Shown one piece after another: positions 103 through 7,743 of a stretch of DNA of 64,000 nucleotides. The translations under genes were made by a program, and so were the position numbers. The notes below the pieces were generated by a model, which did no database searches, had not been told where the DNA came from, and was given only the letters and a program-made list of their open reading frames with translations. Location: contig OZ249436.1 in NCBI GenBank assembly GCA_965235115.1, positions 8,434,001 through 8,498,000 of the forward strand, in the 5' to 3' direction. Numbering within the stretch: position 1 is the first letter of the stretch; the number at the start of each line of letters is the position of its first letter. The DNA is from Laetmonice hystrix. Its lineage: Eukaryota.

Positions 103-2149
103 CTTTGAGCAGCAGCCATTTGTTGCTTGGTTTCCTCTAACTCGGACTGACAAATCTTCATCTCCATGTCCTGTCTCATCTTCTCTTTGTTCAACTGGAA
201 GATCTCATTGCGGGACGATTCCTCCAGCTACAATAGTTCAATACAGATTCTGTCAGCCCATATATCATTATCATCCACTCCATCATTGTCTGGCTATTAC
301 AAACAGCTTATTGAGATCCATCAACCTCCCCATCAACTACATTCAGGTCCCTTAACGAATCTGCAAATAAACATGTTGTATCTAAAAAAGGACAATAACT
401 TAGGGAATGAGTCTGACTGCTTTCAACCAAGTAAAACTCTAAAGTCAAGGAAACATAGGCCCAACTGACAGATGTCAATGTCAACTTTTTTGTAGCATGT
501 CCTATTTTTACAACAGAATCAACATGCAAGCTGTTTGATTTATTTTTTCTATACATGAATCTTTAGCATTCCAGTACTGTGACCTGCTTTTTGTTCTTTA
601 CTGCTTCAATAACATAAAAAAAATCTCACCTCTTCCAACCTAGATTTTAGCTTCAACTTTTCTTTCTGTACTGCTGTCAGTTTGGACTCATACAGGTTCT
701 TGCTGGAGGTGAGCTGTTTCTGACAATCACCCAACTTGATATGGACCTCTTCTTCTCTCTTGGTCAGTTGATGCAGCTGTTGGCGTAGTTCACTTACTTT
801 ATCTTGATCCCTCTACAAGTATAACAACAATGCTGAAAACTCATCCATATAAAAAGTCATCAATATAATAGGTAGAAACATTTTTCAATACCTTCAGCAC
901 ATCCTCTTGCTGACCTTCCCTTTAAATTAAGGATTACCATACATATTTAAATATGTATGGGGGAAGTCATAAAAACTAATATTGTTCATTATATTGATTA
1001 TAATGTTATATAATTGACATCTCTTGTCATCAATGGGCCAGCTGACTGAGTGACTGGAGTGAGGCCTATACCAAGACAAAAGGTGCCTCAAGGCAGCATC
1101 TGTCCTCACACTGAAGTGCCTCAAGGCAGTATCTGTCGTCAGATGGGAGTGCCTCACGGTCGCGATAGAATTAAGCTGGCATATGGCACAATAGATACCC
1201 TGAAATCTTTTAAAATTGAAATGGTGCCTAGGTGTGAGCAGCATTCACTCAGTAGAATAAGGCATTAGTGCCTAGTAAGTAGAATTGACACATTTCCTCA
1301 CCTTCTGCTCCTGTTTAATACTTTCCAAACTGGTGTCATAGTCAATCCTGGCTCTTTTTCTAGAGGTTTCCAGTGACTGACACTTAGCCTTTAAGCTGGT
1401 TATGTCAGTCCTGGCTTGGATTAAATCTGCCTCATTCCTTTTAACTTCTTGACTCTTTTCTGAAAACATGATCAAAATCATACCTGTACTACCATTTTAA
1501 ATTTGTTTCTCCCTTAATGTTTTGATAAAATAATAAAAATCCAATATAAGCTTTCAGGTAATATTTAATATTACACATAAGTACTTTTAGGGGAAAATGG
1601 CCTTTGTTCCCATGAAAAGGAATTCAACCTCATGTGCCTCACTGTAGAGTAAAAGGCTACGTCGATTCCTGTCCTGCGGCTCCTTTCACATTTTGCTATT
1701 ATGATCTACAGAAAATATGAGCTTGTAAAATACGGGTGCTTAGTAAAACGGTCCCCATGGGTGGTTGTAAGACAGCCTTGAAGTAAATCATTCTTGTGTA
1801 ATACATAATGAAGAAATCGTTTTTATAGGCTCCTGCAAGGCTGTAAAAAGGAGTAAAATACTGGTGTAGTGACTTCATAAAACACTGATGAAGCAGTCAA
1901 GTAATTACTGACTTTTTATCATTCTAACTCACCCATAAGACTCTTCATGGATAAAGATGATGATAATTTGGATGATTGCAGGCCTCTTCCATGTTGTGTT
2001 TTGGATGCTTCCATACTGTCTTGGACCTCAGAAATGTTAAAGCCTGCCTGCCTTTTGGAGCTGTCCATCGTAGGTCTGGCTGTTCCAGATATAAATGTAC
2101 GGAAATCCTTTTTCATATTAAGAATTAGCGTGTCTTCTTGAGTGTCCAT
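103..2149 (-). CDS. MAD1L1: Mitotic spindle checkpoint protein MAD1-like, 5' portion (continues beyond the left edge)
   Basis: Four phase-compatible GT-AG exons: 2149-1933 (ATG directly after a tttcag acceptor; 217 nt), 1459-1302 (158 nt), 812-630 (183 nt), 227-103 (125 nt). The spliced protein reads MDTQEDTLILNMKKDFRTFISG...EADLIQARTDITSLKAKCQSLETSRKRARIDYDTSLESIKQEQK-RDQDKVSELRQQLHQLTKREEE... This resembles the MAD1 N-terminus as I recall it (NTMVLSTLRSLNNFIS; LIQ...LSHKRARVELE; REVDRNQELLTRIRQLQERE), followed by coiled coil. Confidence 0.82.
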
Positions 2150-2296
2150 CTGAAATGTAGGGATATTGTACGTTTCAGGTATTTCAGTATAAAAAAGAAT
2201 TTAGCAGTGTTCACAATTAGGAATCGAGCACACATGCTGGGCACTTTAGTAAAGGCACTGGCTATTCGCAGAGCATCTGTGCGAAAAAGCGGTGTA

Positions 2297-4952: not shown

Positions 4953-7743
4953 TCAAACGTTTTTATATGCCACCATGGAGTCAACTTTGTGCACAGATGT
5001 GCTAAAACTGCGGAAACGGACTTCTTGCGAGTTACAGATGAGCGCTGGCCCCGACTCTCCCCACGCCTGGGGTACTTCTAAATCTTTGTCTGTGTAAACT
5101 AGGATATCAAATGCACCTGGAAAGGGAAAAGGAACGTTGGTATAATCTTAGAGAAGGGAGCGAGTTTGACAGTACAATTTTTCAATCATGCCACCCTCCA
5201 GCAAAAACAAAGCCCGCTAGAAGACTGAATGGTTGGCCACAGTCAGCCAACTGATTTGTTGAGCATGTCGGGAGTGCATAGACACGTTAACTGTGAATTA
5301 ATTCTTAGTAATTTAAAGGCCCAGCCTGAACATATAACGACGAGATATACATACGTACCTTTCATGCCTAGCTATATGATGTAATTGTATAAATACGGTA
5401 ATCATGCACTTGAACGTTTGTGAGTAAAATAAAATAATAGGGCTTCGATTTAGGACTCTACAGCCGGCAAAGTTTACATTTCAAAACAGTGCGAACCATT
5501 GTTAAAATGTCTAAGATTAGTGGCGAGTTGAGGCTCTTGAGATGCAACTGGTGTCTGCACGTTTTATTTTTTTTGGGTTTGTTTCCATAGTTGGTAATTG
5601 TTTGAACTGCAGGTACACAGATAATGAGTAAGGCTGATTCTTACTGGTAGGGGGCAATTTTCTCATTACCAGGTAATCTGATTCAAAATGTTTAATCAAC
5701 GGATGTTGAATTCTCCTACTTACAGGCTGACTCTAATAGAGGTAAAAACGTCACCGCCGCTGTGATTTGTCTAATGACTGCACCGATTTCTTTGTTTATC
5801 TCTGCACTAGATTTGGTTCCCCTGTAGAAACAATGAAAATAATACAGTCATATTCACAGATCATTTATAAATGAAAACCTTTGTAAGACAATACAAAAAT
5901 ATAAAATCAGATTGTTGGTAACTTTTACTGTTAGAACATCCATCACTCGATATAATTACTATAAATAGGGGGCTGGCAGACCAAAACAAAAAACATCTGC
6001 AAACACTGTAAATCATTACACATAGGCGGCAGAAGATAAAATTAGTTGGGGCTGTGTGAATGACATGTCCCAAGTTCCAAGATTTGAAATGTGGGTCATG
6101 CTAGTGCCAAAGGCGTGAAGCCTCGAGGGGGCCTCCCCTGGAAAAATTTTAAAATTTACAGTTTGTCTCTAATAACCACTTAGGGGTACAGGAGGGGTGC
6201 CCCCCCCCCCCCAAGCTCTGGTAATTTAGGCTATTTTACTTTTTTAGAGCCTGATCTTGAAGTCTGGATAGTCAGATGAGAAAGGTTTGCTAAACTGGAC
6301 AGTAAATGATAGACATTTCACTGGTACTCTTGTGGGTTGAGGTTCTGTAGAATGTAGCAGCCTAAATACACAGCATAGCAGGCCGCTACACAAAAAAGCG
6401 GGCCATAACACTATCTACCACTACAGTATTATGTTGCATCCTATCGACCATTGCATCCCATGGGTTAAATGGTCTTGGCATCCTATACATGTAGTTAAAT
6501 ATGATTTATTGTATGGAATTTACAGTAATATTGCTAATAAATGTTACCAACTGAAAAAAAATTCACATACACTGTTTCTGGAGTTAGTTGACCTTGGATA
6601 GACTTGTCACACTCTACATCAAACTGCCAGCGTTCAATTGTTTCATTGGTATCCAACGTCTTTATGATAATAACAAGCTTTTGGACCGTCATTTTGTACA
6701 GCCAGTCTGAAAAAAAAACAGAATCATAATTATATCAAGCAATAAGTTGTTTTTTCTAAATTAAGGATAAACTAGAATTTATTGATTGGCCATTTAATAC
6801 TGGCACTGTTCTTTTGCAGCCTATCTCTTAAAACAACCTATACCACTATGCACAATCCTACCTCAACCATGGATCTTATGATCAGTGATAATGGCATGCA
6901 TAAATATGTATTTTCTGTATCTCCTAGAAACATAATACAGACAAATTCATACACACATGACACGCCCCCCCCCCCCACACACACACACGGCATTACAGTT
7001 CTAAGACTAAGGCTTCTTTGACTTTGATTGGATATTTGTTACCAGCACCCCAGGGGCCAGGAAGGTGAACTCAGGTTAGCCTTACTGAACTAGGCAGTCT
7101 AAGTTCTAACGTTACATTTTGACTCATCAGACTCGATTCAGAGGGAACAGGGGTGTACGTTATCTGCCCTTGAACGATTATATTAATATTATGTGGTCAT
7201 GTTTTTTTTTACATCATTTTTAACGAGAATGCTGATTGTCAAGTATGTCAGGAGGCACTCATTACCTTTGACCTGTTTGAGTACCTCGCCTAGGTATTTC
7301 TTCAGGTCATCATCAGTGGTCACAAGTAGAGTCAGACCATACTTTTGTTCTCGTGTGAACATCTCTGGAGGATAAATGCCACGCTGATACAGGATGCTAT
7401 TGATGCCATACACTGGGAAAAAAAACAAATATAATAATGACATCACAGACCTTTACATGTCACTGAGGATTGTGTGAGTGACTGTTGACTTGTGTTGACG
7501 TTGACTTATTTGTGACAAGGATCTAACATTCATTGTCATTACTTGCCTAGGCCGGTTAGATAATCCTAGATTATGATCACAACTGAACCTACACATATTA
7601 GGCACCTGTTGGTTTCTCTTAGGCTGAAGTCAGCAACATCTGCGAGCATATCATGAAGAGCACTTACTGAAAAATTCGGCCACAATTTCTGTTGATCCTT
7701 TCAAAGTGATATTATTTTTTGATGCCTGAAGTGTGCCCGCCAT
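4953..7743 (-). CDS. MAD2L1: Mitotic spindle checkpoint protein MAD2 (HORMA domain), complete, 206 aa
   Basis: Five GT-AG exons: 7743-7668, 7412-7266, 6706-6571, 5821-5724, 5116-4953 (621 nt). Protein: MAGTLQASKNNITLKGSTEIVAEFFMYGINSILYQRGIYPPEMFTREQKYGLTLLVTTDDDLKKYLGEVLKQVKDWLYKMTVQKLVIIIKTLDTNETIERWQFDVECDKSIQGQLTPETVGTKSSAEINKEIGAVIRQITAAVTFLPLLESACAFDILVYTDKDLEVPQAWGESGPALICNSQEVRFRSFSTSVHKVDSMVAYKNV. Hallmark MAD2 motifs occur throughout. Confidence 0.97.

What the first reader, a model, noticed from the sequence alone, without database searches (positions are those of the whole stretch)
103..7743. MAD2 and MAD1 genes lie head-to-tail: a two-gene spindle-checkpoint cluster
Seen: a complete MAD2 gene ends at 4953, and a MAD1-like gene starts its CDS at 2149 on the same strand, only 2.8 kb away. 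Neither is visible whole in the ORF track, because both are spliced. Established: Mad1 and Mad2 are non-homologous (coiled coil versus HORMA domain), form a stoichiometric 2:2 complex whose balance affects checkpoint strength, and are unlinked in human (chr7 versus chr4). Inference: adjacency of non-paralogous partner genes is unlikely by chance. It may reflect ancient microsynteny or selection for co-regulation and dosage.
Basis: partly seen in the sequence, partly recalled or inferred. Interest (0 to 1): 0.75.

Follow-up and report, generated by a model that had tools for sequence, protein, structure and literature searches.

The report
Adjacent Mad2–Mad1 genes in a worm
In what is likely an annelid worm, the genes for the two partner proteins at the core of the cell-division checkpoint, Mad2 and Mad1, lie head-to-tail about 750 bases apart, but they appear as separate messages and are not neighbours in the other animals where this could be judged, so this is likely a chance meeting on a chromosome the two genes already shared.

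Summary
A complete five-exon MAD2 (7743–4953, minus strand, 206 aa) lies directly upstream of a true MAD1, whose first four coding exons are in the window. Spliced contigs of one run confirm all eight introns and add a MAD1 5'-UTR exon (about 3038–3018), so the two transcripts are only 745 nt apart. They form two separate contigs, and each gene has its own promoter-like motifs. The organism is probably an annelid.

Ancient microsynteny is not supported. In three other annelid-type loci a BMP9/10-like exon, not MAD1, follows MAD2. In Pomacea the genes are 278 locus tags apart, in three molluscs they are on different scaffolds, and in hagfish on different chromosomes.

The new fact is macrosynteny: both genes share one chromosome in 7 of 7 resolvable chromosome-scale mollusc and nemertean assemblies. 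That raises the chance of adjacency by shuffling about 8–25-fold. The likeliest reading is a lineage-restricted, incidental juxtaposition. No named polychaete genome and no expression series could be checked, so a clade-wide co-regulated pair stays possible (about 12%).

The parts
7668..7759 (-). MAD2 exon 1 (ATG at 7743; the RNA contig starts at about 7759)
   Evidence: joint 7412/7668, 92 letters on the short side
7266..7412 (-). MAD2 exon 2, Pfam HORMA PF02301 E 2.4e-6
6571..6706 (-). MAD2 exon 3
5724..5821 (-). MAD2 exon 4
3784..5116 (-). MAD2 exon 5: coding part to the stop at 4953, then a 1169-nt 3' UTR with AATAAA at 3821 and ATTAAA at 3803
7790..7822 (-). Two tandem CCAATCA boxes upstream of MAD2 (NF-Y type, label recalled); a TTCGAA (CHR-like, label recalled) lies at 7752-7747
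   Evidence: 1 match in the window; 6 of 100 shuffles reach it
3039..3783 (.). 745-nt gap between the two RNA contigs; holds the predicted MAD1 promoter (GC 0.54, CpG o/e 0.9 at 3001-3250) and homopolymer runs
3200..3207 (.). E2F-like site TTTSSCGC (label recalled)
3124..3131 (.). second E2F-like site
   Evidence: 11 matches in the window, 6 of them in one tandem repeat; chance mean 4.59
3084..3095 (-). overlapping ETS and CRE-like 12-mer (label recalled; pattern chosen after seeing it)
   Evidence: 1 match; 0 of 100 shuffles
3018..3038 (-). MAD1 non-coding 5' exon (5' end not determined)
   Evidence: joint 2149/3018, 21 letters, GT-AG
2150..3017 (-). MAD1 5'-UTR intron, 868 nt, with a dispersed inverted-repeat element at about 2489-2607
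1933..2149 (-). MAD1 coding exon 1 (ATG directly after the splice acceptor)
   Evidence: profile positions 1-41, E 0.0086
1302..1459 (-). MAD1 coding exon 2 (KRAR motif)
   Evidence: E 1e-13
630..812 (-). MAD1 coding exon 3
   Evidence: E 3e-10
103..227 (-). MAD1 coding exon 4; the RNA contig goes on for 2180 more letters that lie outside the window
   Evidence: E 3e-6

Best explanation
Two ordinary spindle-checkpoint genes, MAD2 and MAD1, lie head-to-tail in this probable annelid and are likely transcribed separately from their own promoters; they likely became neighbours by chance reshuffling within a chromosome that has likely carried both since the lophotrochozoan ancestor. Inferred: promoter function of the motifs, the age of the shared chromosome, inversion-type shuffling as the cause, and the absence of selection on the adjacency. 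The proteins would work as usual: a stable Mad1-Mad2 heterotetramer that templates the conversion of a second, free Mad2 pool (PMC8406419, passages). That scheme needs Mad2 beyond the Mad1-bound share, so one-to-one co-transcription is not required (inference).
For: (1) Two separate spliced contigs in run X4, 1806 nt for MAD2 and 2885 nt for MAD1; MAD2 ends 14-32 nt after polyA signals, and MAD1 has its own 5' exon. (2) Different motif sets upstream of each gene and no shared match over 8 nt between 7744-8050 and 3018-3400. (3) Both proteins were retrieved for 12 species. Seven have identical chromosome-scale contig lengths for both: Haliotis asinina, Babylonia, Pomacea, Tubulanus, Mytilus trossulus, M. 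galloprovincialis, M. californianus. Three are on different scaffolds: Nucella, Batillaria, Ruditapes. Two are unresolved: H. rubra, M. edulis. (4) Pomacea locus tags C0Q70_01297 and C0Q70_01575 are 278 apart. (5) In annelid-type loci L010, L015 and L024 the next exon found downstream on the same strand matches the BMP10/BMP9 prodomain (E 2e-7). (6) A MAD1 profile that finds all four window exons finds nothing below E 0.3 in 80 of 80 MAD2 loci; 0 of 84 long ORFs from 13 gene-dense loci hit PF05557. (7) Adjacency by random order is 0.08-0.25% on a shared chromosome of 2500-800 genes against 0.01% genome-wide, and 500-5000 known partner pairs would give 0.05-0.5 adjacent pairs per genome (assumed gene and pair numbers). 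(8) Non-clitellate annelids broadly keep the ancestral linkage groups, and fused groups mix within the chromosome (10.1101/2024.05.15.594353, passages).
Against: No named polychaete could be tested: MAD2 of Owenia, Ridgeia and Capitella was retrieved but not their MAD1. The annelid-type loci form one clade, which may be clitellates with scrambled genomes, so they say little about the ancestral state. Only 15 of the 80 loci have 3.5 kb or more downstream of the MAD2 end. For six of the seven same-chromosome species non-adjacency rests only on RefSeq accession gaps of 430-2723, and these numbers are not strictly positional (Pomacea's differ by about 13,400 though its tags are 278 apart). A specific pair at 0.1-0.2% is still a rare event, and a 745-nt gap is short.
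Confidence: 0.7

Rival explanations
1. The adjacency arose by shuffling in an annelid clade but is now kept by selection, because the two genes share or interlock cell-cycle regulatory elements ('entanglement').
For: Obligate partners; 745-nt gap; two E2F-like sites and an ETS/CRE-like motif in the gap, within 5 kb of the MAD2 promoter; clade-specific stable pairs are known (PMC13508932, passages).
Against: Tandem rather than 5'-5' layout, whereas coregulated conserved pairs are predicted to be 5'-5' (PMC3514665, passages). No shared promoter sequence. The checkpoint genes of the other species examined sit apart. No expression data.
Confidence: 0.12
2. The pair is a relic of ancient microsynteny, kept here and broken up in molluscs, one annelid clade and vertebrates, which would also explain the shared chromosome.
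For: Same chromosome in 7 of 7 resolvable chromosome-scale assemblies, 5 genera and 2 phyla. MAD2 looks mobile in vertebrates: the 17 hagfish chr4 rows among 30 sampled belong to CLG B, C, G, J, L, P, none to F, H, I or Q.
Against: No second case of adjacency anywhere examined; several independent losses would be needed. Sharing a linkage group is common and needs no former adjacency.
Confidence: 0.11
3. The two genes form one transcription unit (read-through or operon-like, resolved by splicing or trans-splicing), since the MAD1 ATG sits directly behind a splice acceptor.
For: Same strand, short gap, acceptor directly before the ATG.
Against: The acceptor is used by a local 5' exon at 3018-3038, behind CpG-rich promoter-like sequence. 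MAD2 has polyA signals just before its contig end, and the two genes form two contigs.
Confidence: 0.04
4. The adjacency is an assembly artefact.
For: No listed DNA contig of X1-X3 bridges 3389-3596, a stretch with homopolymer runs; the four runs come from one sample and may be the source of the assembly.
Against: The window has no N. Listed DNA contigs reach to within about 200 nt on both sides of that stretch (2768-3389 and 3581/3596-5539), and the RNA contig bridges the other break at 2534-2768.
Confidence: 0.03

Closest known systems
Mad2 (MAD2L1, HORMA PF02301) and Mad1 (MAD1L1, Pfam MAD PF05557) of the spindle assembly checkpoint
   Same: MAD2 is 65-74% identical to its 30 best matches among 120 animal MAD2 proteins and has 4 introns like hagfish MAD2L1. 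The MAD1 N-terminus aligns to named mollusc, nemertean and coral MAD1 at 25-37%.
   Different: Only the gene arrangement differs. The Mad2-binding motif and C-terminal domain of MAD1 lie outside the window.
Macrosynteny on ancestral linkage groups (Simakov et al. 2022, PMC8809688; annelids: 10.1101/2024.05.15.594353)
   Same: Genes stay on one chromosome while their order is mixed. MAD1L1 belongs to CLG H, and H is fused with Q in molluscs, annelids and nemerteans.
   Different: The linkage group of MAD2 could not be read: its row is not in the held part of the table. Whether it was on H all along, joined by the H-Q fusion, or moved later is open.
Conserved ancestral microsyntenic pairs (Irimia et al. 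2012, PMC3514665), e.g. HADHA-HADHB
   Same: Non-paralogous neighbours with related function and a short intergenic distance.
   Different: Those pairs are adjacent across distant lineages and coregulated ones tend to be 5'-5'. This pair is tandem and was found adjacent nowhere else. The paper's supplementary list could not be read.
Clade-specific 'entangled' locus pairs (PMC13508932)
   Same: New neighbours made by mixing within a chromosome.
   Different: Those persist across a clade, which is untested here. MAD1 and MAD2 are not named in the main text; its supplementary tables were not seen.

Membership tests
MAD2 (MAD2L1) | HORMA domain spanning a protein of about 200 aa | tested here: met
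   PF02301 on exon 2 above the curated cut-off (27.6 vs 24 bits), weaker hits on exons 3 and 4; 206 aa
MAD2 (MAD2L1) | High identity to MAD2A and a place among animal MAD2A proteins in a tree | tested here: met
   64% to human MAD2A, 65-74% to the 30 best of 120 homologues, tree; REV7 and HORMAD sequences were not included
MAD1 (MAD1L1) | N-terminal coiled-coil region homologous and collinear to named MAD1 proteins | tested here: met
   28 of 28 full-length PF05557 proteins align from their N-terminus, best 115 bits vs 31.6 for shuffles and 26.9 reversed; the four exons map in order to profile positions 1-41, 59-113, 114-176, 176-219
MAD1 (MAD1L1) | Direct Pfam MAD (PF05557) match | tested here: inconclusive
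   No hit on single exons of 41-93 aa; the model starts at about residue 65-70 of full-length homologues and is 661 positions long
MAD1 (MAD1L1) | Mad2-interacting motif, RLK motif and C-terminal RWD domain | not testable with these tools
   Outside the window and no genome is held; the RNA contig has 2180 further letters, room for a full-length protein
Conserved ancestral microsyntenic pair | Adjacency kept in distant lineages | tested here: not met
   Pomacea 278 tags apart; Nucella, Batillaria and Ruditapes on different scaffolds; hagfish on different chromosomes; BMP-like neighbour in L010, L015, L024
Conserved ancestral microsyntenic pair | Short intergenic distance (under 1 kb) | tested here: met
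   745 nt between the RNA contigs
Conserved ancestral microsyntenic pair | Co-expression above matched neighbours | not testable with these tools
   One RNA-like run, contigs only
Bidirectional-promoter pair | 5'-5' orientation around one promoter | tested here: not met
   Both genes are on the minus strand, in tandem
Operon or read-through unit | One precursor covering both genes; spliced leader on the downstream gene | tested here: inconclusive
   Two separate contigs and a cis-spliced 5' exon, but contigs drop rare forms; raw or long reads were not available
Clade-specific entangled pair | Adjacency shared by most species of a clade | not testable with these tools
   No close relative was found and no polychaete MAD1 was retrieved

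The most novel reading that the evidence does not exclude
A group of polychaete annelids has gathered the two core spindle-checkpoint genes into a conserved two-gene cluster, in which the E2F-like and ETS/CRE-like elements in the 745-nt gap and the MAD2 promoter act together to set the Mad1:Mad2 ratio; it would be a natural test of whether checkpoint stoichiometry can be fixed by gene position.
Probability: 0.12. Interest if true: 0.6.

Novelty: new member of a known kind. Interest (0 to 1): 0.25.

Why it matters
The genes are ordinary, and one adjacent partner pair is what large scans will meet by chance. Two points are still useful. MAD1 and MAD2 share a chromosome across molluscs and a nemertean, which my searches did not find in print. 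And this species offers a natural contrast: if the pair proves conserved across a clade, it lets one ask whether gene position tunes the Mad1:Mad2 balance, with species where the genes are far apart as controls.

Tried and rejected
No whole genome is held, and the records behind L006, L010, L024, L049 and L080 are not held. No RNA holder is listed by record; run X4 is taken as RNA only because its contigs skip GT-AG introns. At 95% likeness no X4 contig covers 3133-3654; that blank is not evidence against read-through. Pfam, NCBIfam, a single-exon word search, the ESM Atlas (generic coiled-coil clusters only) and the PDB did not identify the MAD1 exons; the exhaustive search gave 11 unnamed exon-sized ORFs, and only a profile of nine of them plus exon 2 reached named MAD1. 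Alignment A2 of the MAD2 exons to L027 was poor and not used. Pfam did not recognise the exon downstream of MAD2 in L010, L015 and L024; the PDB search did. My idea that the H-Q fusion brought the genes together stays unresolved: MAD2L1's own row is missing, CCNA2 and EXOSC9 (its chicken neighbours, recalled) are CLG F and PRDM5 is unassigned, chicken chr4 carries I, Q and F, and hagfish chr4 shows other groups. The Simakov 2022 table has no gene names; no MAD rows were found in the supplements of PMC7269912 and PMC9977687. RefSeq accession gaps were rejected as firm proof of distance. Contig depth was not used to rank expression. The 'five independent genera' probabilities printed were not used, because shared ancestry makes them one event. 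In one search, 84 of the 101 ORFs were scanned; L032, L034 and L053 were left out as apparent near-duplicates of other loci. Earlier findings hold no MAD1-MAD2 pair.
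Full report
Observation. On the minus strand, five exons (7743-7668, 7412-7266, 6706-6571, 5821-5724, 5116-4953) give a 206-aa protein without internal stops and with GT-AG introns. It has a HORMA hit on exon 2 and is 64% identical to human MAD2A. Then, 2803 nt after its stop, four exons (2149-1933, 1459-1302, 812-630, 227-103) give 227 open codons and run off the window. Four public runs of one sample hold the stretch. One of them, X4, has contigs that skip exactly these introns: all four of MAD2 and three of the second gene, plus an 868-nt intron from 3017 to 2150 that joins a 21-letter non-coding exon to the ATG. 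The MAD2 contig (1806 nt) ends at 3784, just after AATAAA at 3821 and ATTAAA at 3803. The second contig (2885 nt) starts at about 3038 and has 2180 letters beyond the window. The transcripts are therefore 745 nt apart.

Identity of the second gene. Single exons gave no Pfam MAD hit. An exhaustive search with exon 2 found 11 unnamed exon-sized ORFs at 44-55% identity. A profile of exon 2 and nine of these returned 51 proteins; all 28 of 650 aa or more carry PF05557, and the named ones are MAD1 of molluscs, nemerteans and corals or hypothetical proteins with that domain. The 227 aa align to the N-terminus of 28 of 28 (best 115 bits, 35-37% identity; best of 50 shuffles 31.6 bits). A profile built from those 28 alone finds the four window exons in order. 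The gene is MAD1; its Mad2-binding motif lies outside the window.

Organism. In a 51-row MAD2 tree the window groups with Owenia, Ridgeia, Capitella and unnamed rows (support 97/85), so it is probably an annelid. Earlier AI notes on this genome say the same, which is not independent evidence.

Regulatory anatomy. Upstream of the MAD1 5' exon lie a CpG-rich stretch, a 12-mer of overlapping ETS and CRE type at 3084-3095 (chosen after seeing it) and two E2F-like sites at 3124-3131 and 3200-3207. Upstream of MAD2 lie two CCAATCA boxes at 7790-7822 (6 of 100 shuffles reach this) and a CHR-like hexamer. The motif labels are recalled, and function is inferred. The two upstream regions share no match over 8 nt. 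The picture is two independent cell-cycle-type promoters in tandem, not a shared one.

Is the adjacency conserved? First, 80 MAD2-bearing loci from metagenome contigs gave no MAD1 profile hit below E 0.3. Power is limited: 54 of 80 include the MAD2 end and 15 have 3.5 kb or more downstream. In three annelid-type loci (L010, L015, L024), an exon about 3-4.4 kb downstream on the same strand matches the BMP10/BMP9 prodomain. A fourth (L006) has 6.5 kb without MAD1. These loci form one clade and may be clitellates, whose genomes are scrambled. A bird-like locus (L003) has a ribosomal-protein gene downstream, and 0 of 84 long ORFs in 13 gene-dense loci hit PF05557. Second, both proteins were retrieved for 12 named species, and their contig lengths and accessions were compared. 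Seven share an identical chromosome-scale length: Haliotis asinina 79,603,559; Babylonia 74,631,666; Pomacea 45,418,568; Tubulanus 27,379,721; Mytilus trossulus 85,406,108; M. galloprovincialis 94,721,750; M. californianus 117,871,512. Three sit on different scaffolds (Nucella, Batillaria, Ruditapes), and two are unresolved (H. rubra, M. edulis). In Pomacea the locus tags are 278 apart. For the other six only RefSeq accession gaps (430-2723) are available, which are weak evidence. Hagfish has MAD1L1 on chr17 and MAD2L1 on chr4.

Explanation. The genes share a chromosome across two lophotrochozoan phyla but were found adjacent only here. MAD1L1 belongs to linkage group H, which is fused and mixed with Q in molluscs, annelids and nemerteans. 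MAD2's group could not be read, and indirect clues conflict. On a shared chromosome of 800-2500 genes, random order gives adjacency 0.08-0.25% of the time against 0.01% genome-wide, and with hundreds to thousands of known partner pairs a scan should meet such a pair every 2 to 20 genomes (assumed numbers). The simplest account is a lineage-restricted chance juxtaposition of two separately controlled genes (0.70). Rivals: a new pair kept by shared regulation (0.12), an ancient relic (0.11), one transcription unit (0.04), assembly error (0.03). On dosage: the Mad1-Mad2 complex is a stable heterotetramer that acts on a second, free Mad2 pool, so equal output is not what the checkpoint needs (inference).

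Literature seen. Searches for the pair with microsynteny, synteny, cluster, annelid or neighbour terms gave 0, 1, 2, 0 and 0 papers; the three listed look unrelated by title and abstract start. PMC3514665: passages only, supplement not available. PMC8809688: passages, section 14 and the first part of its data file. PMC10972751: supplement rows only; file 6 is cut and file 7 unreadable. PMC7269912 and PMC9977687: supplement searches without hits. 10.1101/2024.05.15.594353, PMC13508932 and PMC8406419: passages. Unseen supplementary pair lists of PMC3514665 and PMC13508932 could bear on the novelty claim.

Verdict. Real, correctly identified and apparently unreported, but most likely incidental. 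Interest 0.25. The open test is simple: map both genes in polychaete genomes.

Noticed in passing
window 30460-31707 (+): Uninterrupted ORF for a PKA type II regulatory subunit (RIIa PF02197 plus cNMP-binding PF00027); no introns in the coding region, possibly a retrocopy.
   Followed up: partly
window 12714-13397 (+): 227-aa ORF with a hydrophobic N-terminus and cysteines at both ends; no Pfam or NCBIfam hit.
   Followed up: partly
window 2489-2607: Dispersed element with 19-nt inverted arms in the MAD1 5'-UTR intron; related copies at 29807-29980 and 44191-44312, very high depth in the DNA runs. Likely a small transposon.
   Followed up: partly
window 3030-3060: A different 744-nt contig of run X4 shares these 31 letters (one mismatch) with the MAD1 5' region but has other flanks. 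Unexplained.
   Followed up: no
L010:10398-10856, L015:7295-7765, L024:11305-11775 (+): A BMP9/10-like prodomain exon follows MAD2 in three annelid-type loci, a conserved neighbourhood in that clade.
   Followed up: partly
L003:7024-7467 (-): Bird-like MAD2 locus with a convergent ribosomal protein L7-type gene (PF08079) about 5 kb downstream.
   Followed up: no
L026, L029, L047, L049: Intron-poor MAD2 loci share upstream neighbours (class II tRNA synthetase and serine carboxypeptidase; PGAP1 in L029 and L049), a conserved gene order among related microbial eukaryotes.
   Followed up: no
window 17364-17759, 19403-19799, 21130-22587, 32774-33834, 48612-49631, 56331-57421, 60678-62038, 63248-63962: Many minisatellite and simple-repeat arrays that produce long repetitive ORFs.
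   Followed up: no
outside the window (hagfish table): Hagfish MAD2L1 lies on a chromosome whose sampled genes belong to CLG B, C, G, J, L and P, unlike chicken chr4 (I, Q, F), which hints that MAD2 has moved within vertebrates.
   Followed up: partly
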